DNA of 62,672 bases, the filler included, from Sanchytrium tribonematis (taxonomy: Eukaryota), in assembly GCA_018985235.1 (NCBI GenBank). It is 12 parts of 12 records of this genome, joined end to end, with 100 filler letters (N's around TTAATTAATTAA, not from the genome) between each part and the next. Parts side by side here need not be neighbours in the genome. Positions count along the whole stretch, not along the records: positions 59,133 to 62,672 come from JADGIG010000850.1; 11 more parts are not named here. One strand, given 5' to 3'. Below, piece after piece: positions 9,453-61,591 of this stretch; position 1 is the first letter of the stretch; each line of letters opens with the position of its first letter. The notes under the pieces are model-generated. The model was not told the DNA's origin. It saw only the letters and a program-made list of their open reading frames with translations, and did not search any database. The translations under genes and the position numbers were made by a program.

Positions 9453-9458
9453 TGTATT

Positions 9459-28501: not shown

Positions 28502-29109
28502 TTACAATTTCAGTTTGGGCTTTCCTAGAAAATTTCTTACAAACCAAACTTGAAGAATGGCACTCGTAATCATGATCCCAGACTCGATTAATGCAAAATG
28601 AAAGATTCTATTTTCGGTGTTCTCCACAGTGTGCATATTTCTACGGACTCTAACAGAATAGAATCTTGCGTTTTTCATATAATTACTCATAGAATTGTAA
28701 ATATCATCAACATATTTGTCCAAAGCATCAGTACTTGTCTGAATAAGTCATTTAATACCTTCTTCTGATGTAAGCCATATTCACCTTCTACGGTAATATC
28801 GACTGCGACTTCTTTTTGTGCCACTGATGCTTTTCCATTCCAAAAACAAAATGAATACTCGCCTTGTTTCTCAAGAGCAAATACAATATCAGTTTGTTTT
28901 TCTTTGGCTCCTTGGACTAATATGGTATTTGCAGGATCTTTGACTTCATAATCAACATCATATTCTCCTCCATTTTGAACAGCAAAGTAAAATCCCAATT
29001 TCTTCGTTTTTTGTTCTACGGTGGCCAAGTGATAAAAGCATTGCTTTTCTGTTGGTTGGATTAAAGCGTACAAGCTCATTGAATAAATTGATAAAATATG
29101 TATTAGCAT
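28502..29109 (-). CDS. p24/emp24 GOLD-domain cargo receptor, two exons
   Basis: CFY..FAVQNGG..GEYSFCF GOLD domain; RRNMHTVENTENRI plus TM; frames joined by 20-nt intron 28739-28758. Confidence 0.9.
28739..28758 (-). other. 20-nt spliceosomal intron
   Basis: gtattaaatgacttattcag; removal gives HQKK/TSTDALDKYV. Confidence 0.85.
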
Positions 29110-30547: not shown

Positions 30548-30676
30548 GTTGCACGGAGAAGCATCACAAAAAAACAATTGAAATATTAAATTCCCCATTA
30601 TTTAATGGCTATTTTAATGGCTCATTCGCACCAATCAATTCCAGATAAATGGGTATAAATAGAATCACGTCACAAA

Positions 30677-31534
30677 ATGATGATGGACGCACAGAAAGCA
30701 TCAACAGAAACAAAGATTTATGTTGGATTGTATTCATTAGCATCTCTTGCCATTGCAGTCACCCAATTCACTGAAATCCGTCAAAAACAAGTAGATCTCA
30801 TTTGGACAGTCACTCAATCATTCAATGATGCTTTTATTGTGTTTTCTTGTTTATTATTTCTATCTGGTTTAACTGGATTAGGATTAATCTACAAAGCACA
30901 CAAATTTGCATTTTATTTCAAATGTGTGTTGGATGCTGGATTGATTATTTGTGGATTAGCAGCAGTGATTGTACAAGGCATGGCACCCAATCCACTTTAT
31001 TTACAAAATGCTGGATTTAAAACTGTTTATGACTATATCATGTTCCATAATGTGCTATGGTACATCTTTTATGTGATTTTGATTCAAGGTTATTCCATTT
31101 ATCAGACTCAAAGAATGTGTTATGGCAAACAAAGCACCATTAGAGACAGAAAAGTCATGATTATTTGCACTTGCATTTTCTTTTTAGTTCAAATATGTGA
31201 AATATTCAGTATTGGTGGTATTATCTCACAAGATAAATCAGGTATTATGACTCCTGAAAAGACTGGATATTTGATTGCACCTGGTTTATTCATGATTCCA
31301 GTGATTTTTATGGGTTTTTTGACTGCATTTGTCAAATTATCTACTTTTAAATTACTTGTCGTCATGTGTTTAGAGAGTATTTTCATTCTATTATCTGTCA
31401 TCTTCTCTGGATATTTAGTTGGTGCAAATAATGTGGTATTTAACGCATTATATGATCCAGCATCTCATTTGTTAGTTGATTTATTAGTCGGAATGGCATT
31501 GGTGATTGCAACCATGAAAATCAAAGATGAATAA
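30677..31534 (+). CDS. Multi-pass membrane protein of unknown function
   Basis: About 7-8 hydrophobic segments in a 285-aa ORF. Confidence 0.65.
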   Translation: MMMDAQKASTETKIYVGLYSLASLAIAVTQFTEIRQKQVDLIWTVTQSFNDAFIVFSCLLFLSGLTGLGLIYKAHKFAFYFKCVLDAGLIICGLAAVIVQGMAPNPLYLQNAGFKTVYDYIMFHNVLWYIFYVILIQGYSIYQTQRMCYGKQSTIRDRKVMIICTCIFFLVQICEIFSIGGIISQDKSGIMTPEKTGYLIAPGLFMIPVIFMGFLTAFVKLSTFKLLVVMCLESIFILLSVIFSGYLVGANNVVFNALYDPASHLLVDLLVGMALVIATMKIKDE

Positions 31535-31632
31535 ATATACTACGTTGAAATTGGCACGTGCATCAAATTGATTCGTTTAAAATAACGACGTATTTCTTTT
31601 TAAAACGAGGAACTCCATTTTCAATCACTAAT

Positions 31633-33289: not shown

Positions 33290-33477
33290 AAATGAATTTT
33301 ATTACTTTTCAGGCAAATGGAGCTAAAATGCGTTGATTTAAATTTAATGGATGTTTGATATTTGGATCTTCAAATGTGATTTCATATCTACCTTGATCTG
33401 TTAATAATTCTTTAAACATGCCTCTGAAATGTCGATTAATGTAACAAATGGGTTCATTTTTGGCATTTTTGATGACA

Positions 33478-37240: not shown

Positions 37241-38216
37241 TGGGAGAAAAGGGATAAACAGTATGGTAATAAAGTGTCAAACAACTAAGTGCAGAAGTTG
37301 CTAAGAATAAAATAACATAAAGAGGAGTATAAATTGTACGATAGTAAATTCCTTCTATTATAGGTGACACCTTAGTGTAAAATTTAATAAGCAATTGCTT
37401 CGCTTTTGAATCAGCTAAATTGACAGTTCTATAAAGCATTAAATGTCCTGACATTTTAAATGAACTAGATTCCAGCAATTTCTCTCGATCACCAATAAGC
37501 AAAAGGTCCTGCATAGCCAATGAATATTGTGCGTGGGCTCTTTGCAGCTTGATGCCCTGATCCGTTAATACACTTGGAGGTTTGTATTCAAATAAACCAA
37601 CCATTTGATGCACTTGTTGCTGAGCTTCGTTGTAGTAATCACGGTAATAAGGCAAATGACTAAGCAAAGACTCTTTGAATCGTGGAGCTTTTATAGACGA
37701 CTTTTCTAAAAAGCTCTGCGGAACTCTTAAAAGACCATTTCCCATACATAGCAAGCTGAGAAGTATACCATAAAGATTTGCTATTTGCATGCAAACAGCC
37801 TTGATAAGATCAAAGGAGAAATTTCCACGGCTGTATATGGCATAGATGACCAAAAGTACAACAGCAAGTCCGAATAGTATCACATAATATTTCAAATAAG
37901 CTTTGAGACCTAAAATGAAGCTTTGTAAAAGACTTATGGTTTGGTTATTCGCCATTGCCTTTCTTCTTACTTTAATTACAGATTGAGCATACGGGATGAG
38001 TACCCATCCTAAAGCGAACAATACCCAGTAAATGACACGAAAAGTCATGACTAAATCTACATTGCTAATATCGTAAATAATTAAAAAGGGTATTGAACTC
38101 GCAAGCAATAATGAGGCACCTGCCAATACCTTGACTACAAATGGAGTGAAGCGGTCTGAGTAGTAAATTGGTACGATCAAGATGGGCAATGAAAACGCTA
38201 GGTAATAGAAATACAT
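37241..38216 (-). CDS. LMBR1-like membrane protein, 3' partial
   Basis: FRVIYWVLFALGWVLIPYAQS and ANLYGILL..MGNGLLRVP. Confidence 0.8.
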
Positions 38217-38256
38217 TTCGTTTCAGGTTGAAATGTTTAAGAAAATATACACAGAT

Positions 38257-39060
38257 TTATTCATCAAAAGTATTCAACGGAAACTCGTAAAATAGATCAT
38301 GAACTCCCAAGTCGAATTGCGAGCCCTGGGCTTCATTTTCAACATACCACACTGGTTCATAAGGCTGAATTGGAATGTGATACTCCATCCAATCAAACGG
38401 ATTGTATAATTGTCTAGTTTCTTCGTTGTGTTTTTTAATATCACTTGGCTTGAATCCTTCGTCTCCAAATCTTGAATCTGTTCGCACCATTTTGGTATTG
38501 GCGTCAAAGGTATTGTCGGGAAAAATCAAGCCAGTTGAGGGAGTGTTTGTAATTGAGACCTTTTCCAGGCTTGGATTATCTCGCAACGAGACTGCGTTTA
38601 AAATTAATTGGCTCTCAACATTTCTGACTAATTGGTCTTCCACTTTCAACTTCATTTTTCTCTTGCGAAATGGCAAGTTGAAAATATTGCAAATTTGTTT
38701 TTCAGATTTTAATGTTTCTTTGTACACAAATTCAAATATGTTCTTAATTTCTTTCACACTAGGAATGACTACATCTTTTTTGAATAGATCTTTTAACTTC
38801 TCCACTGTGTTCTTTGGAACATAGTCGGTATCTAGAAAGATAAAAAACCTTTTCCCTTTTTTAATATAATGGAGGGGTAATAAGTGAACAAATTTAAGGT
38901 GCTTTAGGGTTTCTTCTCTGTCCTTAGATTTTATTTTTGCTTTTCCAAGCTTTTGTTCAGCGTACTTTAGCAAAATATTCCATGTTGCCACTCTTCCATC
39001 TGAATTATAAAAAAAATGCTTCACTGTCTGGGCAAATTCAAAAGATTGTGGTTCCAACAT
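38257..39060 (-). CDS. Hypothetical protein
   Basis: 267-aa ORF between conserved genes; no family recognised. Confidence 0.55.
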   Translation of the reverse strand: MLEPQSFEFAQTVKHFFYNSDGRVATWNILLKYAEQKLGKAKIKSKDREETLKHLKFVHLLPLHYIKKGKRFFIFLDTDYVPKNTVEKLKDLFKKDVVIPSVKEIKNIFEFVYKETLKSEKQICNIFNLPFRKRKMKLKVEDQLVRNVESQLILNAVSLRDNPSLEKVSITNTPSTGLIFPDNTFDANTKMVRTDSRFGDEGFKPSDIKKHNEETRQLYNPFDWMEYHIPIQPYEPVWYVENEAQGSQFDLGVHDLFYEFPLNTFDE

Positions 39061-39585
39061 CTACTTTATATACAATAAACGTTTCACATTTATTTCTTTT
39101 TTTTTCTTAAATGTGGAATTATTTTGATTTTTACGATGAATTTCTTGTGTTTTTCTTTTTAAATAAGCTTGCGTATCTGGATCACGCATCATCTCATCGA
39201 AAAGAGTTGATTTTCGTTCTTTTTTAAATAACCTAGAGGAGAAGTATTCTGATTGCGGCGCTACAATTTCTCCCATAAGGAATCGTTCCGGAAGCTTGCT
39301 CTTGTTCTTTTTGAAATGCCTCTTAGGATTAAGAACGCTTCTAGACTGTAGAGCAAGTAAATCAAGCTTTATCTCTGGTGTAATTTTTTGGACCGGTAGG
39401 GAGAACCAATTTTCAGTTTCCAAAGCCTTTGGATCCGAAGTTTTTCTGCATTTTTCTGGCAATTTACCAATCTCAACTTTTTTTACCGGCAATATACAAA
39501 ACTGCGACATGTCTACCTTGCTTTGGACAAAATCTTCGTCTTTCGTCGAAATTACTTTATCTATTAGTCCAACGATATTTGCCAT
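39061..39585 (-). CDS. FCF2: rRNA-processing protein Fcf2
   Basis: WFSLP..ITPEIKLDL..RSVLNPKRHFK..EYFSSRL.KKERKSTL.DE. Confidence 0.92.
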   Translation of the reverse strand: MANIVGLIDKVISTKDEDFVQSKVDMSQFCILPVKKVEIGKLPEKCRKTSDPKALETENWFSLPVQKITPEIKLDLLALQSRSVLNPKRHFKKNKSKLPERFLMGEIVAPQSEYFSSRLFKKERKSTLFDEMMRDPDTQAYLKRKTQEIHRKNQNNSTFKKKKEINVKRLLYIK

Positions 39586-39653
39586 TACTCCTTCGTTTTT
39601 ATTTCCTCCTTGTAATTGTATTCAATAATCCAGCTGTATTGATTTAAGGCCAA

Positions 39654-40795
39654 ATGAATTCCATTTTGGCATTAGTCAATTCACTCTTTGGTGATAATGA
39701 AGCTTTTATTGAAGAATTCAGAAATTACATAATAGACGAAGAAAATCTTTATAGGATATTTACTAAAGGTCTGGTGAACTCCGATATTAGTGATGAATTT
39801 CAGTTGAGAAAATTACTTCTTATAATTTGTAAATTTTTATCGGAAAATATTCAGGCAATATCAAAAAAAAGTTTTGACTTGTATTCAATAGCTAATGAGG
39901 CGTTTAAATGGTTTAGTGATAATTCTACAGGAGCAAATTCCTCATCAACTATATTGAAACTTATTTCTTTCGCAATAATTACATTTAGCCCCGGATTTGA
40001 ATCGTGTAGCCACATCGAAAATTTACAAACCACTATGGAAATAACTTGCTCTCTATTAGATCAAAGGGATGTTTTTGAATTTTCTAGGTTGTCTGATAAG
40101 CAAAGAAAAATTTATTTTTTTCAACTATTTAACAAAATCAATGACAGCCGAGTCAGCAATATATCTATTACCTCATTCAAAAACCATTCCAGTTTAAGAG
40201 ATTATAGTATCACTTTTAAATCTCCACCAACTCAACTGATTGAAGACGAAGCATTTTGTTGGAACCTCGAAAATTTTCGGAGTATGATATCGATTTATTT
40301 TTCAAAATTGAATGTCGAAAGAGACACTGAAATACCCCTTGCTAGTGTATACGAAGACTATTTAAACAAGAAACAACAATTGTTTCTTAAAAGTCAAATT
40401 AATTCTGCTTCATGCATATTCAAAAGCATTGTACAAATGAGCGGCTGTTGCTTTTTGTATTTGGTACCTAGTGTTGGTGTTACTGAGTTTTTTGGGCTAA
40501 ATCAATTATCCTTATCATCCAGATTGGTATTTCAATTTAATTGTATTCCACAGGGTGACGCATTTTGCAAAATTTACGATCCTTTTCTCAAATATTTGCT
40601 CAAGTTGGAGACAGTGGATCAATTGAGACCGAATGAGAAAAAACATTTGAATCAGAATACCAATATTAGTTGTCTAAATCAGGCTTATTTTGTGGAAATT
40701 GGAAATTATCTTTCCAACTGTAAAAAAATAACAACCAAGGCTCAGACTAATGATAGATATAATTTTAAGGACAAGAGCATGCAATCCTTTCCTCG
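39654..40795 (+). CDS. Hypothetical protein, 3' partial
   Basis: Long ORF divergent from FCF2, open to contig end. Confidence 0.55.
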
Positions 40796-40895
40796 NNNNN
40801 NNNNNNNNNNNNNNNNNNNNNNNNNNNNNNNNNNNNNNNTTAATTAATTAANNNNNNNNNNNNNNNNNNNNNNNNNNNNNNNNNNNNNNNNNNNN
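40796..40895. other. Artificial contig spacer
   Basis: N44-TTAATTAATTAA-N44. Confidence 0.99.
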
Positions 40896-41726
40896 CTTGA
40901 TGAGGATGTAAAGACGAACACAATCTTAAGATATTTTGACTCTAATCAGAAGCAATTTGTCGAAATAGAAAGTAAAAGCGTAAAAATTTTAAAAGAATAC
41001 CTTGACAATGGCTTAAATGAAGAAATTATTGAGTTGTTTCGGCGAAATTTGTTTATATATGAGCATCTAAGTCCAATGGTTAAGGATCTATATGTATCGA
41101 TATTTGATGATTTGTTTAAAGCAATGAAAATTTCTTCCAATATTGATTTGATTTTGTCTTTGATTCGAGTATTCAAGCAAGAAATGGGAAATACTTTAGT
41201 GTTTGACGATTACTTGGATAATCTTCATGATCAATTGATTTCCCTAATTAGTGTAGAAACAGAAAAAATACTTTCACCTAGTCAGCCCAACAAGACGCTT
41301 TTTTCTTTTGGACAACAGAACCTTGATATCAACACCAGTGACATAATTGGAAAAATTCATAGAAAAATTAGTAATTTAAGTGATGAACAATTGAAAGACC
41401 TTTATGTTCTTCAATTTGAGTACGGATTGGAGACCATTTGGGTAAACAGGATATACGATGCTCTTCGTAAAGGGCAAATCCATCATTTCAAAAACCCAAA
41501 TAAGCAACTATTATTTCGACATCAGATTGAGCTGCTCCAAGGATTTCTAAGCGAAACTTCAAAAACTAAAGACACTCAGTTTATGAAACTCAGCACAGTT
41601 CATTTGAAAATTGTTGATGTTGCATTCTCTTCTAGTACATTTAAGCAAGAGGATTACGTCGAGTTTACACAAATTGCGCAACGTGATATCCAACAATTAG
41701 TCCGCTTGGTATTTGAAATTAAATAA
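40896..41726 (+). CDS. Hypothetical helical protein, 5' partial
   Basis: Frame appears open from the contig start; family not recognised. Confidence 0.5.
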   Translation, partial: LDEDVKTNTILRYFDSNQKQFVEIESKSVKILKEYLDNGLNEEIIELFRRNLFIYEHLSPMVKDLYVSIFDDLFKAMKISSNIDLILSLIRVFKQEMGNTLVFDDYLDNLHDQLISLISVETEKILSPSQPNKTLFSFGQQNLDINTSDIIGKIHRKISNLSDEQLKDLYVLQFEYGLETIWVNRIYDALRKGQIHHFKNPNKQLLFRHQIELLQGFLSETSKTKDTQFMKLSTVHLKIVDVAFSSSTFKQEDYVEFTQIAQRDIQQLVRLVFEIK

Positions 41727-41729
41727 AAT

Positions 41730-42416
41730 TTACTTAAAAGCAGGCACCGAATAGGAAGAAATTGCGCGGGTGAAGACATCGTCCATCTTTGATTTGTGGG
41801 GCAGAAAGTTCATCGCATTAAGGGTATTTTCGTTTGCCTTAAAACCTTGGACTTTAGAATTCCATTGCATGGCGTCTTGTATGTTATTGAGTCTCAATGA
41901 AGTAACAGAAAGAAGGTTTGACAAGTGATCATTTTGACCATAGCTTTGAGCTATTTCTTGAAACGTAAAAAATGCATTTTGAATTTCTTCTTGATTGTCA
42001 CTCAGATATAATTGCGCTAAAGCTTCACAGTATTGAATAATAACATCGTGGTCGCTGAACTTTACCACCATTTCTTTCAAGTGCTTCTTAACTTCTTGAT
42101 AACAATTCATTGCAATTAAAATAAATATTCTTAAAACACTTACTTCGAAATTACCCGGATGAGGTTCTAATAATTTCAGTGCCTCTCCATATTTTTGCAA
42201 ATGCCAATAATGCATTGCCGTAAAATAAGCAGCGTACTCGTCATTCGATGTCTGAGAAAGTTTCTCTAAGTCTTGAAATTTGGTTTGAAGATACAAGTTG
42301 TACGCCTTGGCATAATTGTCATTTGTTTGCATGGGTACTTTTTTTTCCCTGGCTTGAAAATGCGGTTCCGTTGCATTATTATATCCTGCATAGAAATTCA
42401 AAATATCTCTCACCAT
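41730..42416 (-). CDS. SEC28: Coatomer epsilon subunit (short, divergent)
   Basis: NFYAGY N-terminus, TPR-like helices, EVSVLRIFILIAMN, IQNAFFTFQEI. Confidence 0.75.
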   Translation of the reverse strand: MVRDILNFYAGYNNATEPHFQAREKKVPMQTNDNYAKAYNLYLQTKFQDLEKLSQTSNDEYAAYFTAMHYWHLQKYGEALKLLEPHPGNFEVSVLRIFILIAMNCYQEVKKHLKEMVVKFSDHDVIIQYCEALAQLYLSDNQEEIQNAFFTFQEIAQSYGQNDHLSNLLSVTSLRLNNIQDAMQWNSKVQGFKANENTLNAMNFLPHKSKMDDVFTRAISSYSVPAFK

Positions 42417-42432
42417 GTTGTTACAAAAAAGA

Positions 42433-42960
42433 TTACAATTTACTTTTCAAATATATTTCATCAATAAACTTTTTGGTGAGATATCCAGTTAATCCCCATA
42501 TAACATGGCTTTTATAGCAAAATGTGCTTAAGCGTTTCGTTTTCATCATTGCTAATTCGCCTATTGGGGCTAAAAATACTTGAGACACTTCTTGCTTATT
42601 TAGCCTTAATTCATTTGTGTCTATAAAAGGCTTGTATCCAACAAAAGTACTCACTTTTGTGTCTGATGATTTTGCAGGAACTTGATAAAATTCGCCAAGA
42701 ATTTTGATATCGCTCAAGCCTATTTCTTCTTCAGTTTCCCTTATCGCAGTTTGCAATAGGCTCAAGTCAGTCGGATCTTGTTTGCCACCTGGAAATGATA
42801 TTTGACCAGCGTGATTCTTTAATGTGTCTGCACGGACTGTATATAAAATTGATAGTGGTTCATTGCATAGCAGAATCATGACTGATGCATTTTTGGGCCT
42901 TTGGACACGATTTACCTTTAACCTACCCAAAGTTTGAGATATTTTATCGATTTGAGGCAT
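42433..42960 (-). CDS. Nudix CoA pyrophosphatase (NUDT7/8, Pcd1 family)
   Basis: LYTVR..LKNHAGQISFPGGK plus Nudix box TAIRETEEEIGL, IWGLT. Confidence 0.92.
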   Translation of the reverse strand: MPQIDKISQTLGRLKVNRVQRPKNASVMILLCNEPLSILYTVRADTLKNHAGQISFPGGKQDPTDLSLLQTAIRETEEEIGLSDIKILGEFYQVPAKSSDTKVSTFVGYKPFIDTNELRLNKQEVSQVFLAPIGELAMMKTKRLSTFCYKSHVIWGLTGYLTKKFIDEIYLKSKL

Positions 42961-43182
42961 TTTTATTCAAGTTTCACATACACTTATTTTATTTACCACT
43001 TTATTCTAAAAGTGCCTTGGCGCAGATGTCACCATTTTTAAGAAGGCGTATCATAGAGGAGAGGGAATGCTGCACTGTGATGGCATTTAGCAATTTACCC
43101 CTTTCATCTTTATTCTCACACATGTACACAAATTTTCTAAAAGACTTACATGATTGTTTTAATTTTAATAAAATGGTCTAAA

Positions 43183-44427
43183 TTAGTAAAAATTAACAAG
43201 AAAATTAATATGATGAACTTTAAGCCAAATGTATTCTGGTTTAGATTTGAGCAATTTGTCAACTTGAGCCTCTCGATCTAATTGCATTTTAGAAAATAAA
43301 TGCTTCTTTATGATCATTGTCAAATCTTTTTCTTTCCCGCCTTGCTCGATATCGTAAATCCAATGAATGACTTTGTCATTAAAACTATTCCAAGTCATTC
43401 TGCTAGATTTGACATAATTTGGTGCGACCAATACTCGAGTTATGTGAAACTCAGAATGTGGAATATTCGACTCACTTAATTTAAACAAAATTTTAAGCCT
43501 TCTTTCCCTAATTTCATTTTCTCTTTTACAGATAAGTTGCAGGCCAAACTCAAGTGGTTTATAAACATACTTTAATGTCAAATGAGGACATTCCATTTTA
43601 CATAGTTCATCAATTTCCAAGAGCGTATCGTGACTAAGAGGAAGCGAATTCATATTAATAATTTGGCTTTGTATTTTCTCACAGCAAAATATATACCTGG
43701 CCAAGTATTCTGGCTGAGAAACCTTGCCTCGAACAAGTAGTTTGATGTACTCAATAAATACCTGATAATTGGATTGCAAATAATCGTACCTTAGATCTAC
43801 TAATGAGAACAATCTATTTAAAGTTTCAGAGACCGACTTGTATCGAATGCAGAATCCAAAAAGCTGATGACCTGATTGAATTTCACATGGATCTTCATAC
43901 CAGGGCAAGTAAGACAATAGATCCACTTGTTCTGGCTTACATAATTGTTCAAATGTGCTCTTCGACCATCTTGCTAATTGAATCTCTACTGATTTTTGCT
44001 CAGTGTAATCCTTTAGAAAGACATCAAAGTCAGTCAATTTGATAATGTTTTTAGCGAAATAAATAACTGCATCATTCACGAAATTATCTTTTGGTCCTAA
44101 TTCGACTTTTTTCCAAAAGTTAAATCCCTCATATTGAGAATTGAAATAATTTATAATCACTTCCTTGTAAGAAGTTCTAGTTTTTAAGTTCTGAATAAAT
44201 TTATCCAAATCCAACTCTTTAAAATCTTTGGAAATTAGCTCAAAATAGGCTGGAAGCTTAATAACCTTTTGAAAAGCATCATTACTATAAATCTTGCAAA
44301 TGGCTCTTTTAGCTTCAATGTGATTGTGGATAGTTTTAAGTAGTGGTGTTATATAAACTTGAAAAAAGTCTTGAAGTAAATCTCTATCATTAGAAATAGA
44401 ATGTAATGATCTGCTTGCCTGTATTAA
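43183..44427 (-). CDS. Hypothetical protein, 5' partial
   Basis: Long open frame; family not recognised. Confidence 0.5.
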   Translation of the reverse strand, partial: LIQASRSLHSISNDRDLLQDFFQVYITPLLKTIHNHIEAKRAICKIYSNDAFQKVIKLPAYFELISKDFKELDLDKFIQNLKTRTSYKEVIINYFNSQYEGFNFWKKVELGPKDNFVNDAVIYFAKNIIKLTDFDVFLKDYTEQKSVEIQLARWSKSTFEQLCKPEQVDLLSYLPWYEDPCEIQSGHQLFGFCIRYKSVSETLNRLFSLVDLRYDYLQSNYQVFIEYIKLLVRGKVSQPEYLARYIFCCEKIQSQIINMNSLPLSHDTLLEIDELCKMECPHLTLKYVYKPLEFGLQLICKRENEIRERRLKILFKLSESNIPHSEFHITRVLVAPNYVKSSRMTWNSFNDKVIHWIYDIEQGGKEKDLTMIIKKHLFSKMQLDREAQVDKLLKSKPEYIWLKVHHINFLVNFY

Positions 44428-44449
44428 ATTTCGCTAAAAACATTATCAA

Positions 44450-44574: not shown

Positions 44575-47500
44575 TTTTTTTTTATATAAATTTATTAATT
44601 TAAGGATTATAATTTGCTCAAGTTATGGCAAATTGCATTAAATCTCGATGTAGAAGTTTCATTTTGGTCCTTAATCCAACAATATTATGGGTTTTACCTT
44701 TTATTTTATGTAATCTAAATCCCCTTACTTTTTTAGTATGATGGTGACTATGATTAGAATGTAGTATTAAATTTAGTGGTGTGGTATGATAGTGGTTATG
44801 AGATAATGCATCCACAAAATGATTTAAAGAATCAGGTTGTGTTGAATCATGCCCCTTAATTTTATATATTGAGCAGTTTTTAAGTTTGGAAGCAATTTGT
44901 GCTATCAAGTCCCCACAAATATTTTTGTGTCTTTGTAATAAATTATTTTTAAAGTCATTAAAGATGCTGATACTACCTAAAGAATCTGTGAAAATATGAA
45001 TTGCACATTGTTGTCCAAATTGATATCGGGCCTCTTGAACTGCATGACAAATTGTTGCAAATTCTGCTCTGGTGGATGAACGTGGATCTATGGTGGTTAG
45101 ATCCACGGATTGATTAAAATAAGAAGATTCTGTCAAATAAATAATTCCACCAGTCGCAATTACATTTTCAGACTCTTGTGGTAGATGCAGTGAAGCATCT
45201 GTCCAAATGTAAACCGTATTTGGAGGCACAATTATATTATCTATAATGGTTTTCCATTTTGTAGATATTGTTGAAATAAAGTTGCATTGAGTGAGATTCG
45301 AATGCGGTACATTCAAAGTAGTCATAAAACAGGCAAAAAATTGATTTATGTGTAGATGATAATGTGAGCATGTGGTACATTTGATGTTGATTGGTAATGG
45401 GAACTTACGAGTAAAAACATGCCATAGATATTGATTATGCTTAATAAATTGTTTAAATTCTGTATTTAGGGTGAAACTCATTTTGATTCTTGGGCTGTAC
45501 TAAATAAGATGTAAAGAATTAGTTTTAAAAGATAGTTGATTATTAAATCTACTAATTATATCCCTCCATCTATGAATGTATGGTTTATAATTAAACAGAA
45601 TATGCATGTCATCAATAGGATATGAGTTTGGAATTTTCATTAGTGTCCTGATGGCATTATTAAAAAATAAATCAATTTTTGATACTTCACCATCTTCCGG
45701 TTCAAAAATTCTCATTCCAATGTCAATTAATGGTAATAGAAAGCTTCCAATGCTTTTGCAAAGGTGTTCAGGGCAAAAATTATTTTGAAAAACACCCACT
45801 TTAGCCAATTGCTGTAGCTGTCTGTTGCATTTTTTGATATTAAATTGAATTTGCGTTTTCAAATTCATTCCGTATTGATTAATTTGAAAACCCAGCCATG
45901 TTGAATATTTTTCATCAATAACGACTGTTTTTGATTGGTTTAAATGTAAACCAATGTCTGCAAGACAATCACCAATTGCATCTAATGCCTTTTCAATTGG
46001 CATATTATCTTCTAAAATCAATAAAAGGTCGTCTGCATACCAAATGGTGAACAGTTTGAGCTTTATACTTTTCATTGTCTCATCTATCATCTTAATAAAC
46101 AGTTGGGGAGATAACATTGTACCTTGTAATATTCCCTTGTTAACTGATTGGGGTTTGGAAAAGGATTCTCCTATTCTTAGCTGTAAATTTTGTTTTGTTA
46201 CCAAATTTATCAAAATACATTTGATATTGGTTGATAAAGTCATATTTTGGACAAGAATTAGAAAGGCAGAGTGATCTATGCTATCAAAAGCGGCAGCTAC
46301 ATCACACTGCACTAATTTAAATGTGCGACCCTTAGAATTCAGATAATTGATTCTATTTTCTAAAGCATAAGCAGCATGTGTAGTGGAAAATCCGACCTTA
46401 AATCCAAATTGATTGGATGATGTTTTTAATTCTGGCATCACAATAACTTTAATAATAGATTCAAGCGATTTCTTAAAGATGGAGGCAAGACAAATCGGTC
46501 TGTAAGACATGATATCATTAAATTTACGATTTCGACCTTTATGAACAGGTACAATGATATTCTGATTAAATTGAGAGGGATAGATTCCTGCAAAGCAAAT
46601 AGAATTGTAAAATGCACAAATAAATGATTTGAATCTATCTGGTGCAAATTTGAGGAATTCATTCATTATTTGATCTTTACCAGATGATTTATCATTAGGA
46701 AGGTTTTTCAAATATTTCTTTAAGGATTTGCATTCATCTGGAATTGACTTATCGTTTTTAAAATCATGGACATTTTGTAAATGATCATTGAGTTTTTCTA
46801 ATGAAATATTTGACCATGATTTTGACAGATCAGATGGTAGAGCTGGGTTATTGATCGTGGTGGAAAGATTCCATTTTGATTGCCACTTTTGGAGATGTTG
46901 TTCAATTGCAAAAACATCAAGATGTTGGTGAATTCTTGATTTTCTTCTTCGATTTGATTTCATTCTTTTCAGAAATCCACATGTAGAAAGACTGTTGATT
47001 TTATCCCGGAAAGATTTGAGAGAGAGACATTTAGCACGCGAGATAATTTTGTTTGCCAGTTGATGGTTACCGTCCCTTCTTTGATAAGCAGACTCATAAA
47101 AAGAACTCATAAACAATTTCTTGTGTCTCATTGTTTTTCCAAAACTGCAGTTGCCAGCCTTGATTAGGGCATTATTTATCAAATCAAACAATTCATCTAT
47201 AATTGGCTGCTTTTCCGAATCTTCTTTAGTTTGGAATTCAAATAACATTTGATAAAGCATTTGTGAGTGTCGCACCATGAAGATATTCAACTCATTTTGA
47301 TATTTGATTTGAATATTTTCATCGTCTTTAAGTTTATTAATTCTCCACCTTGGGCATTTACCATGAATGATAACATCTGATTTATCATTTAAATCGATTT
47401 CATAATTTAGCATAAGATGATCACTGAAATTTGTTTGCGTGAAATAAGAATCTATAATATTGAATTTGCCATTGGATTTGTAAAATCCAAAATCGCAAAA

Positions 47501-48096
47501 TGATTGATGGCCACGAGAATTAATAAATGAAAATGGCGCATCGACCTCTTCAAATTTCAGATCAATGCTTGCCATTTGGGTCAAGAAATCTGATTCATTT
47601 GTAGTCAAGGTTTTTTTCAAGTTGATATTAAAATCCCCTACAAAAATACAATTCTCACATAAATGTGGTTCAATGTATTCCTTAAAAAAATTTTGAAAGT
47701 GTGGGATCTTTTTTCTGTAAATATGAATTAGTTTCACCGATTTAAACTGAATAACTGTGTGGAATTTGTCTCCTGAAATTACGTTAAGATCACCCATATT
47801 ATATTTATCAGGATTATAAAGAACGGCAGTGCCATAATGCCCTAGTGGATCCGGAAACGAGATTCCATTTTCGATAAACGGGCTTCCTTGTAACTCATTT
47901 AAAAATATTAAATCATGTTGTTCTTCTCTAAACTTTAGATTCACATCTGGAATCAGGTATTTTCCTCCATTAATGACTGTAATGAATGACTGTAATAGAA
48001 TTAAATACAAAAACCACCCATTAAGAGCATCAAATATTCGAGATATTTTTCATGAAAATGTAAATTGGCTTAAAATTGAAATCAATAAAGCAGAGA
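44575..48096 (-). mobile_element. Near-intact non-LTR retrotransposon ORF2 (APE-RT-Cys motif-RNase H) with short A tail
   Basis: APE FLNE, VGDFN, SDH; RT KSSGKD, YRPICL, QFGF, DVAAAFD, GILQG..LSP, YADD; RNase H TDAS/RAE/TDS/KGH/N..VD; one in-frame TAG at 45500-45502; AATAAA then A9 at 44575-44583. Confidence 0.95.
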
Positions 48097-48255: not shown

Positions 48256-48609
48256 ATGATCTTTACCACTATCTTCGCTGCAAATGTCACTGCTACATTG
48301 GACAATGATCAACAAAAATGTTTAACAGGTTGTTTTGACACGGATGTGAATTGTCAAGCCAAATGCTTAGGAGTTCCATATCCTGATCCAGCTTTAGCAT
48401 CAAAAACATTATCATGTTACAATGACTGTAAAGATGATGTGTGCAGAAGCCAATGTCAAAATGATTTTATCACAGGAGTGGGTGTCCCAGTCAATACTTC
48501 CAGTCAATCCCCTGATAAAAATGAAGCAACGGCTTCTTCAGCATCTTACACAAGTGCTGTTGGTGTTGCCTCATTGGTTTTGTATGGTTCTGCTTATTTG
48601 TTTCAATAA
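48256..48609 (+). CDS. Small Cys-rich putative GPI-anchored protein
   Basis: Eight Cys in CxxxC pairs (C..GC..DVNCQAKC.GVP.P), S/T linker, hydrophobic tail. Confidence 0.75.
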   Translation: MIFTTIFAANVTATLDNDQQKCLTGCFDTDVNCQAKCLGVPYPDPALASKTLSCYNDCKDDVCRSQCQNDFITGVGVPVNTSSQSPDKNEATASSASYTSAVGVASLVLYGSAYLFQ

Positions 48610-51843: not shown

Positions 51844-52315
51844 GGGACTTGTTCCATTCAACCCATTCATTTAATTTGTGATTTGATTGGTGCAACTGTG
51901 TTTGGATTTCCTGGTTGTATGTTCATTGGTGTCACTACTAATCTATCAAGCAAACAAGTAAATCATTGACTTGGGATATCCAGCATCAAAGTAGTTTCTC
52001 AATAAATCCACGAGAGGCCAAAACATTGATCTGATTTGATAAATTACAAAGAACGTGCTTTATACGCGTAATTGCAATATATAGCACTTGCCACAATATT
52101 AATGCTTCAATTTAACAAATAAAATGGTATTTTATGGATTTCTAGTTCATGGAAAAGCAGCCATAAATTTGTTCAAATATTCAAAATTTAGTTTCATCCG
52201 TGAGTAATAAATCTGATTTATAATCAGTCATACTCATTCGTTATTCAATTCATATTAGTATCATTAGACCAATAGCCATTTAAATTCGTCTAGGCCATTC
52301 AAAGTTTCATCACAA

Positions 52316-54665
52316 ATGAGTTCTGCTTTAAAATCTATGTTGATGCTCTATTTAGTCTCTATTACGCGTCTATATGCCATATCAACAGATTGCCCTGTCA
52401 TATTCAACTTTTTACAAGGTTTAAATCTACATTTGACAGATCCAGCACTTTATCAAAGTATTCCAACAAACTGCTGTAATTACTCAAATTATGCATTTGG
52501 ATATTTCAAGATTGTATGTTCAGGTACGGGTGCAAGTGAGCGTGTTACTGGTTTGACGGCTTCTTTTGTACATGTTAATGGAACTATTAAATCACAATTT
52601 CTTCCATCCAGTTTAACATTGCTGGAAATATATGACACTCCACTAAATACAACTATCCCTAATGATTTACCAGGTTCAATTACGACTATATCACTGTACG
52701 ACAATCAATTAAGAGGTTCTATCCCAAATACACTTCCATCTCAACTAGATTCTTTTTTTGTTAATAACAACCAATTAACGGGACTACCGGATTCTTTTCC
52801 CAATACTCTGCTTTATTTATATCTTGATGAGAATCTATTTGATAAATTACCAATTCTTCCACCAAATTTAAGAGATTTTTCAATATCTGGAAATTTGCTG
52901 ACTCGCTATCCAACTAGTTTTCCGTCCACATTGATTGCTTTTCGAATGAAAAATACATTAATTGGTGGTGCATTTCCAACCAATTTTCCAGCATCTCTCG
53001 AACGTTTAACACTTTCGAATAATAGATTGCAAGGAATTATCCCAAGTCTTCCCCCACAATTAATTCAATTGTATGCCGAGTTTAATTTTTTAACTGGACT
53101 ATCCTATGATCCGCCAAAAACTATGAAAACATTATATTTGAATCATAATTTATTCACTAAAATGCCAATATTGCCACCACATTTGGAGCTATTTGATATT
53201 TCCAACAACAAAGTATTTGATAAAATGCCGAGTTCATTTCCAGTCAATTTGGTGGAATTCTCAGGGGAATATAATCAATTATATGGACCAATTCCACCTC
53301 TTCCTAGTCCAATGGACTATTTGTCATTGAGCTACAATCAATTAAATGGGACATTTCCAATTTTAAGCGATTCAATTGTAGCCTTGCTTTTGGATTATAA
53401 TTTATTGACGGGCAGTCTTCCAAATACATGGCCACCTATTTTGTATAGCCTCAATGTAGCAAATAATAAAATGTCAGGAAATTTATCTGGCTTCAATAGC
53501 TCAAAACTACTAAATTTTATTAATTTATCGATGAATTCATTTTCTGGAAATTTGCCAATATTAAATTTAATGACTTACTCAATGTTGGATCTATCTCACA
53601 ATCAGCTATACGGTGATATAGATTTGAATTATACTTACATTGAAGATTTAAGATTGAGTTTCAACAAATTTACCAACTATCCAAAATCACTACCTTTAGA
53701 CATCAAAACGCTTAAATTAGACAATAATCAGATGTCTGGCAATATCAAATATGATTTACCATCATCACTCACTACTATTGATTTGTCAAATAATAATTTA
53801 ACAGGATTTATTCCAAATTGGCAAAATAATATCAATCCAATATATTTTAATATTTCCAATAATTCAATCACTGGCACTATCCCAAAATCACTCCAAAATG
53901 TTAGTACATTGGATATATCTCATAATTACTTAAGTGGGTGCATTGATTACCCATTTAGTGGCTCTAATTTCTATTTAAATGATAATTATTTAAGTGGCAA
54001 TTTCTCATTTGTAGCTCCCTCTCAGCTGTATTTACAGAATAATTATGTAAATGATGTGGTCATAAGTAATGCAACAGTATTAACCAATTGTAGTTTGGCC
54101 AATAATCCAATGGCACCCGGAGTGTTTGGTAAAACATTCAAAAATCAATGTATTTTGACTGGCATCTTCGCAAACAGTCAGAGTACTTGTAGAATATTAA
54201 CAATGGATGAAATACTACATCAAAAGATATTTACAACCACCCACACTATAGAGACTACTGCTATGACGACAGCAGCAACCTCAACGACATTTGAGGCAAT
54301 TCCAATTGATACGACAAACAGTCTTTCAGAAATCTCCTCAAAAGAATCAGATATTACCCTGTTTACTCGTAATTTACTTTCATTTAGGTCCAACCATTCG
54401 CAGTCGCATTTTAGCTACATCTACAATTCAAACTTCCATGATGCCCTCCATGACATTTGAAATGACTCACTCAAATCAAACAATCACTGTTAGTTTGGCC
54501 AATGTCAAACCAATTCAAGTGGCTTTGATTGAATTCACTTTAATGAAAGTCATTCGAATATTCATTTCCGGGATTGTATTTGGTGCTATTTCACAGCAAT
54601 TAATAATGAATATTCGACAATGGAAGAAACAAAAGCCAAAAATGAGCAATACAACTGGCATTTAA
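52316..54665 (+). CDS. Type I membrane LRR receptor-like protein, two exons
   Basis: Signal peptide, Cys cap, ~20 LRRs, T/S-rich stalk; 19-nt intron 54369-54387 joins a hydrophobic segment and basic tail RQWKKQKPK. Confidence 0.85.
54369..54387 (+). other. 19-nt spliceosomal intron
   Basis: gtaatttactttcatttag, phase 1; gives LFT-R-PTIRSRILATST. Confidence 0.85.
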
Positions 54666-55489: not shown

Positions 55490-56511
55490 CAATCACAATA
55501 TCTGCAAATTTTAAATAGCAGAATAGGACAATTTATGGATAAACACCAACTACACTAGGAATCTGATGGTATTGTTTTCATGTCAATGACATGAAATGAT
55601 CCCTTTAATAAATTCTTCTTCTTCTTCTTGACAGCCGTGAAGTGCCAAATACACCACATTTTTGGGAATAGCTGGGAATACGTTGTTAAGGGAGTGTATA
55701 TAAGCAGCATCACGGTCTGTCATGAAGCAGGGAATCTCCCTTTGATAATGTTGTTTGAATAATTTCAAGATTTCATTAATCATTAAAATAGATTCAGAGT
55801 ATACATACGCACAAGCAATATCCATACATTGATTCAATTGATTTTTACAGGTAAATATGATTAATTTTAGATTATTTAGATATGTCACATTAAATGTTGA
55901 ATCAAAAATGATTGGACCAATGAATGTATTGGATCGATATACATTCTTGAAGAAGATGAACAGATAATTGAATGCATGATACTGGAATTCATGATCAATA
56001 TTTGGGGGATAATCAATAATAAAATCAATTTCATCATCTTTTTTCATATTAAATAAATTTCTAAAATCATGGAAATCTGGCAGGATATTGTTTATTAAAT
56101 TGATAGCTAAATCCAACTGGAATGTTTCCCGGATAATTTGATAAATGCTTTTTTAAGTGTAACAACGTGTTTGAAGGCAATATGACTGATTCTGATTAGA
56201 TCCTTCAATCTAATAATAATATTTGATTGCGGCAATTCGTGGTTGTGTAGTGAAAAAGTGTGTTCTATAAATTGTTTAGGGCTCCATTGCCATTCTTCTT
56301 GACCATTTTTATCGGGTTTTAATAATAGATTGATGGCAAATTTACACTTTATGTTGGTATTAGGATATTTGTGATTACAAATAAACCGTCCATTTCGCTT
56401 TTTACGATCCATGGAATCATAAAATAAGATGTTATAGCCATGGAATAGTAAATATGTTAGATTGCGCAAATCATCCAATGAAAATGTGTCATTCTTATTC
56501 TCCTCATACAC
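55490..56511 (-). mobile_element. Mutator-like (MULE) transposase pseudogene
   Basis: WRKY/FAR1-like C..C..W..HNH finger; IFDSTFN and FMTDRD catalytic Ds; CIWH in a shifted frame; two frameshifts. Confidence 0.85.
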
Positions 56512-56901
56512 TTGAAGGTTTTACGGAGTTACAATTTGAGGCAACTCTACATGTTCGACATCAATTTCGATGTCATTGGAAGCCATTTGTGTCAAAAAAT
56601 AAATTTATTGTATTCTGAAGCAATCAGTTGCTTATCTTTGTATCAAGTTGCAATGTGGTCTCACATGTGGCAAATGATCAAAATTGCAAATTTCGAACCA
56701 ATAGGCAGTTACGGTGTACGGTGGAATAATATTGACTTGGAAAGATATCGATCATGTCGGTATAATTTTAAATCGATGAATGATTTGGTCATCAAGATAT
56801 TAACCTTACAATTAAATGGAAACTAGATTAAATAGAAAATGAGTGAATTAGCTTGAAAATTGGATTATTTTATTATTAACTATAGCCCATTCAGATTTTT
56901 T

Positions 56902-58182: not shown

Positions 58183-59032
58183 TTAAAAATCAAATGTTTT
58201 TATTGACCCACTTCCCCTTCTTGCATTTGAGCAGCTAATCCCTCTAATTTCTTGAGTAATTTCTTTTAAATCTGTCATGTGTGAACTCAATAATGCATAT
58301 TTTAATCGTACAAAATCAGTATGCTCCAAATTATCAATATGGACTGTTCCCCATGCATATTCACGCTTATTATCAATAGAGGATGTCACTGCAAATGGCA
58401 AAAGGTCCTAAATGAGTCTAATTTACCCGCAATTCCTTGTTTTCACCCACGGTATCTTCATCATCTTGGTGATGGTCATATGGGAAATTGAAAATGGGGA
58501 TATCATAATATTCAATATCTGCAATACATCTCTTTTTTAATACAACCATTTCTTCATTGGTTAATGAATCACTTTTCGCAATCACTGGGATAATATTAAT
58601 GCGATGTCCTAATAATTTCATAAATTGGATATCCATTTCATGCAAACCATGGCCTGGTGATATGAAATATAAGCATACATGGACTCGATTATCTACGAAT
58701 TTCGGATTTCTCTTAATTCTAGACTCTTCTGCCAAGAAATCATCATATTGTTTTTCAATAAATTGAATCACAGTCTCAAATTGGGAGGTATTGTCAATGG
58801 CATCTCCATATCCAGGTGTATCAATCACACTTAGGGATATTTTAAGACCATCTTCTTCAATTTCAGTGTGATAGGGAATGATTTCCATGGTGGGCTGTAA
58901 TTGGTGATTTCTATCGATGCAGTGGGCGCCTAATGAATTGACAAATGTAGATTTGCCTAATCCGGATCTACCTGCTACGATCATGTTGAATTGGAATACT
59001 TTACGGGCATTTCTACGAGATCGTAAATCAGC
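58183..59032 (-). CDS. Septin, 5' partial, with 19-nt intron and aberrant 3' end
   Basis: GRSGLGKST, DTPGYG, DNRVHVCLYFI, AKSD, LPFAV, REYAWG. Confidence 0.93.
58408..58426 (-). other. 19-nt spliceosomal intron
   Basis: gtaaattagactcatttag; removal gives ENKELR/DLLPFAV. Confidence 0.9.
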
Positions 59033-59481: not shown

Positions 59482-61591
59482 ATGTATGAGTATCTCATCG
59501 CAATTGCAGTATTGATCATATTACTCAAACCGAAATCGATTCATAACCAGATGACTATCACAAAGTCGAACAACGAAACAATTTATCAATCGATACATGC
59601 CAAAAATGGTCTCAGAACTGGACCTCATCAAACTGCTTCTTCATCAAGTAGTGTCACTAGTGAAGAGCCTTCCACAATGTATGAACTATTAGAATATGCA
59701 TATAAGCACCACAAATCTAAAAATCTTTTTGGGTTTCGTACTTTGATCTCCACATTAACAAAAGATAAGAGGCAGTTTTATAAATTGTCGGACTACAAGT
59801 GGATGTCAATGAGCTTATTTTATAAAAGAACAATTGCTATTGGAAAGTACATTAGACATTTGCTGCAGGACAAGAAAAGTAAGGAATCTATTCCTTCAGA
59901 TCCTGTGCTTATGATTTTCGCTTCAACCTCCGTAGAGTGGCAATCAATTGCACACGCCTGCTTTTCCCAATCTGTAACCATCTCTACTGCATATGATACT
60001 CTAGGACCATCAGGACTAGCGCATTCACTTGTTCAGACTGAAGCCACAATTTTGTATTGTACGTCAGACCAGTTTAAAGTTTTGATTGAGTGTATAAAAG
60101 AAACAAAAGAACATAAATTGAAGAATGTTATTTATAAACGTGGTATGTCACTAGATGATAATCAATTTAACAATTTATTAGGTGAATTGTCAAATTTAGT
60201 TGAAGTGCATGAATATGAGGAATGTGTTATTCATGGCGATGCATTGGATCATCCAGTGATAAAGCCTTCCCCGGACTCTCTTGCTTGCATTATGTACACC
60301 AGTGGAAGTAATTCATATTTATTTAGGCACAGGACAACCAAAAGGAGTCTCTATCTCACATTTGAATCTTTTGAGTACTGTTGGGAGTGCTGTAGATGTC
60401 ATGGGTACCATTTTGACTTCAGAAGATGTTTATTTGGCATATCTTCCACTTGCACATATTCTCGAATTAGCCATTCAAACCGTGTTAATTTATTTTGGAT
60501 GTCAAATGGGCTATGGATCACCACGTACCTTGATTCAGTATGTGACAGACTGCAAAGGAGATTTACAAGCATTACGGCCAACTGTATTTTGTGGTGTTCC
60601 TCAAGTATGGGATACAATCAAAAAGACAATTTCTCATAGGTTGCAGTCACAGAATATCATCAAGAGAAGTGTCTTTTGGACTGCTTACTACTTAAAAAGC
60701 ATTCATATTTACAATGGGTTACCAACTCATCTAATCAGTGACTTGATATTCAAATCTATCAAGGATGTTACTGGTGGTCGATTGAAAATGGGTATTTGTG
60801 GTGGTAGTCCTTTGAATGTCAACACTCAGATATTCATGAGCCATATTTTATGTCCGATTTATCTAGGATATGGAATGACTGAAACAGTTGGAATGGGTTC
60901 ATTATTGACGCCTTTAATTGGGTGGATTCCTGGTGTTGTTGGATGTGTTATGCCCTCTGTACAAATGAAATTAGTCAAGCACGAAGATATGGATTCAAAG
61001 CAGTCAAGCGATCCAAATGTTGGTGAAATTTACTTGCGTGGACCATCTATCTTTAATGGTTATTACAAAAAACCTGACTTAACAAAAGAAGCGTTTGAAG
61101 GTGAATGGTTTAAAACTGGTGATGTTGGACAAGTTGATCCTGATTTTGGAGTTTTGAAAATTATTGATAGAATTAAGAATCTCGTCAAATTAAGCAATGG
61201 CGAGTATATCGCAATTGAGCATTTGGAAAGCGTTTACAAACAATCTCAATTGATTACAAATGGAATGATTTGCGCCGACTCTCATTTAAAATTGCCAATT
61301 CTTGTATGTACGACTAGTCCTCAATTCGACAAAATGTGTGAAGAACATGGTGTAAGCAAAACGGAAGGATTTAAATCTTTACACTCGCAAGTGCTGGAGG
61401 CATTAGTTAAAAGCGGCAAAGAGCATGGACTCAAAGGAACTCAATTAATCGGTGATGTTGTCATGAGTGACTATGAATGGACAAGTGAAAATGGAATGTT
61501 AACTGCTGCTATGAAATTACAGCGAAGACACATCATGGAACATTACAAGGATGAGATCCAGTCTTGTTATAAACGATTGGGAGATGAATAA
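59482..61591 (+). CDS. Long-chain acyl-CoA synthetase (Faa1/Faa4/ACSL3-4 type), two exons
   Basis: IMYTSGSTGQPKG after splicing; YLPLAHILE, GYGMTET, WFKTGDVG, IDRIKNLVK..GEY. Confidence 0.95.
60308..60326 (+). other. 19-nt spliceosomal intron
   Basis: gtaattcatatttatttag; removal restores the AMP-binding motif YTSGSTGxPKG exactly. Confidence 0.95.

What the first reader, a model, noticed from the sequence alone, without database searches (positions are those of the whole stretch)
60308..60326. Ultrashort 19-20 nt spliceosomal introns appear to be the norm in this fungal genome
Seen: five frame breaks on five different contigs are each repaired by removing a GT..AG segment of 19 nt (33124, 54369, 58408, 60308) or 20 nt (28739). 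I found no longer intron. This one restores the invariant YTSGSTGxPKG motif with no spare residue. Known: introns this small are typical of chlorarachniophyte nucleomorphs (~18-21 nt) and heterotrich ciliates (15-16 nt); typical fungal introns are several times longer. Inference: a fungal lineage with a length-constrained minimal splicing system.
Basis: partly seen in the sequence, partly recalled or inferred. Interest (0 to 1): 0.9.

Follow-up and report, generated by a model that had tools for sequence, protein, structure and literature searches.

The report
Tiny 19-20-base introns in sanchytrid fungi
Six genes of a sanchytrid fungus (a parasite of algae) are interrupted by inserts of only 19-20 bases that are very likely spliced out as introns; relatives appear to share two of them, and they would be shorter than any fungal introns I could find in print.

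Summary
Observation confirmed and extended. The window is a sanchytrid: its septin differs at 1 of 202 residues from Sanchytrium tribonematis. All five GT..AG segments are present, plus a sixth (43178-43197). Removing 60308-60326 gives a stop-free 696-aa acyl-CoA synthetase with YTSGSTGQPKG. All six end YTNAT-TYAG (A at -6) and lack G at +5. Public proteins of Amoeboradix and uncultured relatives break at the same emp24 and septin positions; their read-through tails decode best as 19 nt (4) or 20 nt (3). A public DNA run holds the focal insert, so an assembly error is unlikely. No RNA run was listed: splicing is inferred. Introns are rare (6 in 33 kb coding). Stop-free 18- and 21-nt introns are invisible to this method, and genome-wide uniformity rests on six positions. 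Likely mechanism: major spliceosome, branch site fused to the 3' site, 5' site set by distance, as in Stentor. Amoeboradix keeps most spliceosome proteins; Slu7/Prp18 labels are missing (weak). Tiny introns are known in ciliates, Mikrocytos and nucleomorphs; I found no report for sanchytrids, whose genomes were annotated without introns. This scan earlier noted 25-32-nt introns in Rozella. New variant; interest 0.68.

The parts
60308..60326 (+). 19-nt intron GTAATTCATATTTATTTAG (phase 1, splits the Ser codon of YTSG-S-TG) in long-chain acyl-CoA synthetase; focal finding
   Evidence: only excision restoring the motif; 696 aa, no stop, full-length match to relatives; held unchanged in DNA run X1
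59482..61591 (+). Long-chain acyl-CoA synthetase gene (exon 1 59482-60307, exon 2 60327-61591)
   Evidence: Pfam AMP-binding profile 12-173 and 174-384 in two frames; homologs; tree
58408..58426 (-). 19-nt intron GTAAATTAGACTCATTTAG (phase 0, in-frame TAG) in a Cdc11-like septin, after GENKELR
   Evidence: same break in P0131-P0134; present with one substitution at +4 in X1
28739..28758 (-). 20-nt intron GTATTAAATGACTTATTCAG (phase 0) in an emp24/p24 gene (28502-29109)
   Evidence: Pfam EMP24 profile 2-122 and 112-181 in two frames; same break in P0124-P0127
33124..33142 (+). 19-nt probable intron GTCATATTAACTAATTTAG (phase 0) in an unknown secreted protein; excision adds a Ser/Thr-rich tail with a hydrophobic end
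   Evidence: no homolog test (Atlas blank)
54369..54387 (+). 19-nt probable intron GTAATTTACTTTCATTTAG (phase 1) in an LRR protein; excision adds a hydrophobic, membrane-helix-like stretch and a basic tail
   Evidence: best 19-residue hydropathy 1.9 spliced vs -0.47 unspliced; no homolog test
43178..43197 (-).
   Evidence: no homolog test (representative search never ran; Atlas leads under 0.9)
44419..44441 (-). Untested 23-nt candidate GTTTTTAGCGAAATTTAATACAG, 8 nt from the contig end, at the Met-less start of the same unknown ORF
   Evidence: upstream exon is cut off, so it cannot be judged

Best explanation
Six genes of this sanchytrid fungus carry 19-20-nt GT..AG inserts that are very likely U2-type spliceosomal introns, and two of them likely sit at the same place and length in Amoeboradix and uncultured relatives, so tiny, near-fixed length is probably the rule across Sanchytriomycota. 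Shown: the inserts, their GT[ACT] start, no G at +5, the end YTNAT-TYAG with A at -6, no room for a polypyrimidine tract, and frame restoration. Inferred mechanism: U2 pairs with YUNAY; the A at -6 is the branch point; the 3' site is the YAG five bases on; the weak 5' site is chosen mainly by lying 13-14 nt upstream of the branch A. The product would be a lariat with a 14-15-nt loop and a 5-nt tail. With so short a branch-to-3' distance the second step would be predicted not to need Slu7/Prp18. Most ancestral introns were presumably lost and the survivors shrank to near the size limit of the spliceosome.
For: Exact motif repair in two conserved proteins. All 4 sanchytrid-like emp24 homologs and all 4 sanchytrid-like septin homologs found are truncated at the window's junction. 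Seven tails could be decoded; best lengths 19, 20, 19, 20 (emp24) and 20, 19, 19 (septin), each giving an exon 2 in register with the window's. Shuffled tails reached the score in 0 of 200 (four tails), 0 of 500 (one), 21 of 500 (P0124) and 13 of 500 or 4 of 200 (P0126). A at -6 is forced by the amino acids in 4 of 4 19-mers and allowed in 3 of 3 20-mers. The residue after the first Val (L, Y, I, P) excludes G at +5 in 8 of 8 relatives (read). DNA run X1 holds the focal insert unchanged. Its septin allele differs at 17 exon sites, 16 synonymous, and once inside the intron away from GT, branch A and AG. Amoeboradix is annotated with Prp8, Brr2, SF3B1, U2AF35/65, SF1, U1-70K, Dbr1, Prp22, Prp17, Yju2, Cwc25, Isy1 and others. 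Stentor has the same geometry and lacks Slu7/Prp18. In yeast these factors are not needed under 7 nt (review).
Against: No transcript or lariat evidence. Only six positions, and only two tested across taxa. Lengths in relatives are decoded from protein tails, not read from DNA, and the decoding picks the best codons; two tails are short and only modestly beat shuffles. Three of six window introns have no homolog support and have 4 to 9 other excisions reaching the same stop. The focal intron is absent from all five sanchytrid-like relatives (full-length ORFs). The Slu7/Prp18 absence is from an annotation table covering about half the proteins; U1C, Smu1, RED and the Prp16-specific label are missing there too. 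Cyanidioschyzon lacks Slu7/Prp18 despite long branch-to-3' distances, so the loss is not specific. A relaxed motif also hits inside an apparently intact exon (48373-48391).
Confidence: 0.8

Rival explanations
1. The six are real spliceosomal introns, but the genome has a wider range (18-25 nt or a longer class) and no strict ruler; 19-20 reflects a small sample and blindness to stop-free lengths divisible by three.
For: Six positions only; 18- and 21-nt stop-free introns cause no frame break; a 23-nt candidate at 44419-44441; the long-intron scan flagged only 3 of 6 known breaks.
Against: 13 of 13 measured or decoded lengths are 19 or 20, none 22, 23, 25 or more, though tails were tested from 8 to 60 nt. 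The same intron flips only between 19 and 20 across taxa about 20% divergent in protein.
Confidence: 0.14
2. The segments are assembly or amplification errors, or frameshifts in decaying gene copies, that resemble introns by chance in AT-rich DNA.
For: The window has at least one damaged spot: about 34 nt of septin coding sequence held by X1 are missing near 58247-58250. X1 may not be independent of the window's source.
Against: Same breaks in Amoeboradix and in six ENA/NCBI proteins from uncultured relatives. Shared signature, 7 vs 1.52 expected. 16 of 17 exon differences between alleles are synonymous. Random errors would not give GT..AG with exact motif repair.
Confidence: 0.02
3. The inserts are removed or bypassed without the spliceosome: IRE1/tRNA-ligase cutting as for the roughly 20-nt fungal HAC1 intron (recalled, not looked up), or ribosomal hopping.
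For: Similar size to the HAC1-type intron (recalled). The 5' site lacks the usual +5 G.
Against: All six have GT..AG ends and a branch-like motif, are 73-85% AT, lie in unrelated genes and vary freely in the middle between taxa. The spliceosome and the debranching enzyme Dbr1 are annotated in Amoeboradix. I did not fold the junctions.
Confidence: 0.04

Closest known systems
Tiny introns of heterotrich ciliates (Stentor coeruleus, 15-16 nt; PMC9505925, passages read)
   Same: GT..AG, AT-rich, GTA-rich start (commonest intron GUAAUUUUUAUAUAG, no +5 G), putative branch A with a 5-nt tail (-6), two adjacent lengths, most spliceosome proteins kept, Slu7 and Prp18 not detected
   Different: 4 nt longer here; branch motif closer to the fungal YTNAY; a compact parasite genome rather than a giant free-living cell; independent origin; RNA evidence lacking here
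Chlorarachniophyte nucleomorph introns, 18-21 nt (as summarised in PMC10245619, passages read)
   Same: Nearly the same length window; reduced genome
   Different: Over 800 introns in about 300 genes there, against about 0.18 per coding kb here; endosymbiont relic nucleus against a cell's own nucleus
Mikrocytos mackini introns, 16-17 nt (PMC10245619, passages read)
   Same: Parasite, few introns, two adjacent lengths
   Different: Only 17-19 spliceosomal proteins and no introns in metabolic genes there; here the spliceosome looks far less reduced and an acyl-CoA synthetase carries one
Short introns of Microsporidia (about 25 nt, from '76 nt is about three times longer') and Rozella allomycis (about 30 nt) (PMC6349667, passages read)
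   Same: Fungal relatives, parasites, low GC, short introns
   Different: Longer; sanchytrids branch inside Fungi as sister of Blastocladiomycota (ACS tree 95/92), so the shrinkage would be separate
Myxobolid myxozoan introns, median 22 bp (PMC13644364, first third of text and passages read)
   Same: Parasite, reduced splice-site motifs, convergent shortening
   Different: Animal; longer; that paper's list of known exceptions names ciliates, Microsporidia and Dicyemida, not sanchytrids

Membership tests
U2-type (major) spliceosomal intron | GT..AG termini | tested here: met
   6 of 6 in the window; compatible in 7 of 7 decoded tails
U2-type (major) spliceosomal intron | Excision restores the conserved protein to the residue | tested here: met
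   ACS and septin exactly; emp24 by Pfam halves and relatives; three others only by frame extension
U2-type (major) spliceosomal intron | Branch-site motif with an adenosine near the 3' end | tested here: met
   YTNAT with A at -6 in 6 of 6; A forced in 4 of 4 decoded 19-mers. Sequence pattern only; branching not mapped
U2-type (major) spliceosomal intron | Usual extended 5' consensus with G at +5 (consensus recalled) | tested here: not met
   0 of 6 window introns and 0 of 8 relatives (read); Stentor's commonest intron lacks it too
U2-type (major) spliceosomal intron | Removed from mature mRNA through a lariat | not testable with these tools
   No RNA holder listed
U2-type (major) spliceosomal intron | Spliceosome encoded in the genome | tested here: inconclusive
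   No genome held for the window; no snRNA in the window. In Amoeboradix's published annotation 18 of 24 proteins were found, 1 ambiguous, 5 not found
Length-constrained tiny-intron systems (Stentor, Mikrocytos, nucleomorph) | Nearly all introns of the genome within a 2-4-nt window at or under 21 nt | tested here: inconclusive
   13 of 13 lengths are 19 or 20, but at six positions, from 62.7 kb; one 23-nt candidate untested
Length-constrained tiny-intron systems (Stentor, Mikrocytos, nucleomorph) | Strongly reduced spliceosome (Mikrocytos/microsporidian type, 17-19 proteins) | tested here: not met
   18 of only 24 labels tried are already present in Amoeboradix, among them U1-70K, Luc7, Cwc25, Isy1, Prp17
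U12-type (minor) intron | 5' RTATCCTTT consensus (recalled) | tested here: not met
   0 of 6; two minor-spliceosome labels (recalled ids) not found in the Amoeboradix table
IRE1-cut HAC1/XBP1-type intron | Non-GT-AG ends in stem-loops, in a bZIP mRNA (recalled) | tested here: not met
   GT..AG ends in six unrelated genes, none a bZIP by Pfam; stem-loops not folded

The most novel reading that the evidence does not exclude
A whole fungal phylum, Sanchytriomycota, splices with a molecular ruler: essentially every intron is 19-20 (at most 18-21) nt, the shortest in Fungi and their relatives, with the branch A fixed at -6 and no +5 G. It converges on Stentor down to the loss of Slu7 and Prp18, and can still gain new introns of exactly this size (the acyl-CoA synthetase intron, absent in five relatives).
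Probability: 0.4. Interest if true: 0.82.

Novelty: new variant of a known kind. Interest (0 to 1): 0.68.

Why it matters
It would add an independent origin of introns under 21 nt, inside Fungi proper, next to intron-bearing Blastocladiomycota. With Stentor, Mikrocytos and nucleomorphs it makes the lower size limit of the spliceosome testable by comparison: which proteins and snRNA contacts change when the lariat loop is 14-15 nt and the 5' site has no +5 G. Both described species have been observed on their algal host and sequenced. In practice, the published sanchytrid proteomes were predicted as plain ORFs on contigs, so intron-bearing genes are truncated or split (septin, emp24; SF1/BBP appears as two adjacent ORFs). 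Gene-loss claims for this phylum deserve a re-check, and aligners need a minimum intron length under 19.

Tried and rejected
No whole genome is held, so no genome-wide scan or snRNA search. No RNA holder listed; this says nothing on expression. Searches for relatives' DNA found nothing usable: JGI metagenomes with emp24 and septin alignments, viral contigs, GTDB (one 25-residue, 48% match in a bacterial contig, treated as chance). The search of 50% representatives never ran (7 tries, queue full), so the unknown proteins at 43178 and 33124 lack homolog tests; the Atlas gave only leads under 0.9 or none. No tRNA or Rfam match in the window. In-frame 18-nt look-alikes were not accepted: 60182-60199 (relatives show no insertion there by eye) and 728-745 in Chs7 (Pfam covers 2-286 of 287). 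Motif hits at 10652 (no sense-strand ORF of 70 aa or more) and 48373 (inside an apparently intact Cys-patterned ORF) were taken as background. Long joins link neighbouring genes or transposon pieces and lack the branch motif. Outgroup septin P0172 breaks at the same position, but no length from 8 to 60 nt decodes well (best score 14), so its intron is probably longer. Pfam was run on 54 selected ORFs, not on all ORFs. Literature searches without a report on sanchytrid introns; others for comparison. The main Supplementary Information PDF and one table of PMC8371127 were too large to read, one PDF had no text, and the Sanchytrium sheet is cut at 171 rows; these and subscription journals could mention the introns.

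Full report
What the window is. It is 12 contigs joined by N44-TTAATTAATTAA-N44 linkers, 31-36% GC. No genome is held. The nearest named relative of the acyl-CoA synthetase is Amoeboradix gromovi at 52%. The window's septin exon 1 differs at 1 of 202 residues from a Sanchytrium tribonematis protein. In a 24-sequence tree the spliced synthetase falls with Amoeboradix and four ENA proteins at 100/100, joined by Blastocladiella at 95/92 (the tool flags the window row's amino-acid composition as atypical). This matches the published placement of Sanchytriomycota as sister of Blastocladiomycota, with genomes of 10.5-11.2 Mb and about 35% GC (PMC8371127, one section read). The organism is therefore S. 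tribonematis or a very close relative.

The observation. At 60308, 22 GT/GC..AG excisions leave an open frame, but only the 19-nt one gives YTSGSTGQPKG; 117 of the 122 proteins then held show that spacing and 5 do not match the pattern. The spliced protein has 696 residues, no stop, and aligns over nearly its whole length with relatives of 684-709 aa. In the septin the 19-nt excision gives ELR-DLL-PFA, the spacing of 86 of 120 homologs, with 34 not matching and none at another spacing. Pfam finds the two halves of emp24 in two frames. For the LRR gene and the unknown gene at 33124, excision adds a hydrophobic C-terminal stretch. A sixth segment, 43178-43197(-), 20 nt, has the same signature. 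For these three without homologs, 3 to 9 other excisions reach the same stop, and the choice rests on the motif.

Signature. All six start GT[ACT], have no G at +5, are 73-85% AT and end YTNAT-TYAG with A at -6. The strict motif at 19-20 nt occurs 7 times against 1.52 expected; 0 of 200 resamples reach 7. The test is partly circular, and one hit (10652) is background. With a relaxed motif the count is 11 against 4.3 (1 of 200).

Artefact check. The one public run listed, X1 (DNA contigs), covers the focal contig in one piece with no difference inside the synthetase gene. It also holds the septin intron, with one substitution at +4, and 17 exon differences of which 16 are synonymous. X1 may share a source with the window, so it is not fully independent. 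No RNA run was listed.

Relatives. Public proteins predicted without introns read through into the intron, so their tails record it. All 4 close emp24 homologs (78-84% identity) and all 4 close septin homologs stop shortly after the window's junction. I tested every GT..AG length from 8 to 60 nt against each tail. Best lengths: emp24 19 (P0124), 20 (P0125), 19 (Amoeboradix P0126), 20 (P0127); septin 20 (P0132), 19 (Amoeboradix P0133), 19 (P0134). P0131's two-residue tail is too short to decode. The method returned 20 for the window's own emp24 tail, as it should. Shuffled tails reached the score in 0 of 200 or 0 of 500 for five tails, and in 21 of 500 and 13 of 500 for the two short ones. A at -6 is forced in all four 19-mers. 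The second residue of each tail excludes G at +5 in 8 of 8. So 13 of 13 lengths are 19 or 20 nt, at six positions. An outgroup septin (P0172) breaks at the same place without a short solution, which suggests an old intron that shrank. The focal intron is absent from all five sanchytrid-like synthetases, which are full-length ORFs with the motif intact. The tree leaves the six unresolved, so gain in this lineage and loss in the others both remain open.

How general. By my hand list, 35 gene-like ORFs cover 33.4 kb and hold 6 introns, 0.18 per kb; most genes have none. A scan for breaks of 14-300 nt found no further one with the branch motif, but flagged only 3 of the 6 known. Stop-free 18- and 21-nt introns and UTR introns are invisible to all these tests. 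A 23-nt candidate at a contig end (44419-44441) cannot be judged. With 6 of 6 positions tiny, simple arithmetic (0.05 to the power 1/6) puts the lower 95% bound on their share near 0.6.

Mechanism. Shown: ends, motif, lengths, frame repair. Inferred: U2 pairs with YUNAY (CUAAU in 2 of 6), A at -6 branches, the YAG five bases on is the 3' site, and the information-poor 5' site is set by a 13-14-nt distance. This is the Stentor layout (branch A at position 10 of 15, 5-nt tail; PMC9505925, passages) with 4 more bases in the loop. In yeast, Slu7, Prp18 and Prp22 are not needed for the second step when branch and 3' site are under 7 nt apart (PMC3392075, passages), and Stentor lacks Slu7 and Prp18. 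In the Amoeboradix annotation table (3,755 rows held; labels recalled from memory, confirmed only where a row was shown) I found 18 of 24 major-spliceosome proteins: Prp8, U2AF35, U2AF65, SF1, SF3B1, U1-70K, Dbr1, Cwc25, Prp17, Isy1, Yju2, Prp22, Brr2, Cdc5, Cwc22, Prp6, Prp31, Luc7. Prp16 was ambiguous. Slu7, Prp18, U1C, Smu1 and RED were not found. The Slu7/Prp18 gap fits the prediction but is weak: the table covers about half the proteins, others are missing too, and Cyanidioschyzon lacks both despite long distances (PMC10158995, passages). The spliceosome is not minimal in the Mikrocytos sense.

What is known. Introns of 15-16 nt (heterotrich ciliates), 16-17 nt (Mikrocytos) and 18-21 nt (nucleomorphs) are in print, as are myxobolids at a median of 22, microsporidia at about 25 and Rozella at about 30. 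A survey of 644 fungal genomes, in the passages I saw, gives no such short lengths (PMC8476143). The sanchytrid genome paper's main text has 'intron' only in a reference title, 'splic' not at all, and predicted proteins with TransDecoder on contigs. A second sanchytrid paper likewise (PMC10459994). Searches (listings only) showed no report of sanchytrid introns; unread supplements and subscription journals could hold one. Earlier notes of this scan describe 25-32-nt introns in Rozella and about 38 nt in Neolecta, none in sanchytrids.

Verdict. The introns are very probably real (about 0.93). That 18-21 nt dominates across the phylum is likely (about 0.75). The ruler mechanism is the best reading but untested. 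It is a new variant of a known kind: a further independent origin of tiny introns, apparently the shortest in Fungi. Interest 0.68.

Noticed in passing
window 58247-58250 (-), septin exon 2: X1 holds about 34 nt here that the window lacks; read by eye they encode the conserved septin stretch LYEQYRTEKLS, so the window's copy shifts frame near its end. Assembly collapse or a deletion allele; not an intron.
   Followed up: partly
window 60308-60326 against P0002-P0006: The focal intron is missing in all five sanchytrid-like relatives: a candidate intron gain at the canonical 19-nt size, or loss in the others.
   Followed up: partly
PMC8371127 supplement 4, rows 1135-1136: Amoeboradix SF1/BBP is annotated as two adjacent ORFs (p11, p12) on one contig, as expected if an unmodelled tiny intron splits it.
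   Followed up: no
P0172, P0139: Non-sanchytrid septins are also broken or mis-joined right after the ENxELR position, hinting that this intron position is old in fungi.
   Followed up: partly
window 4587-18016: First contig is rich in decayed retroelements: integrase, RNase H and RT pieces at 5985-7597(-); RT and RNase H at 16373-18016(+); RNase H at 11635-12399(+).
   Followed up: no
window 44621-48049 (-) and 55586-56520 (-): An RT-bearing element split by one in-frame stop, and a frameshifted MULE transposase; X1 shows several related copies over the latter.
   Followed up: no
window 26240-33477 and 37241-44449: Very dense gene packing: many neighbours lie within tens of bases (e.g. convergent RPL15 and emp24 about 20 nt apart), and most genes have no intron.
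   Followed up: no
window 24847-26139 and 52268-54665: Two secreted or membrane LRR proteins with a similar Cys-bearing N-terminal cap in 62 kb suggest an expanded family.
   Followed up: no
window 48373-48391 (+) and 10652-10670 (+): 19-nt look-alikes that seem not to be introns; both have G at -7, which none of the six accepted introns has.
   Followed up: partly
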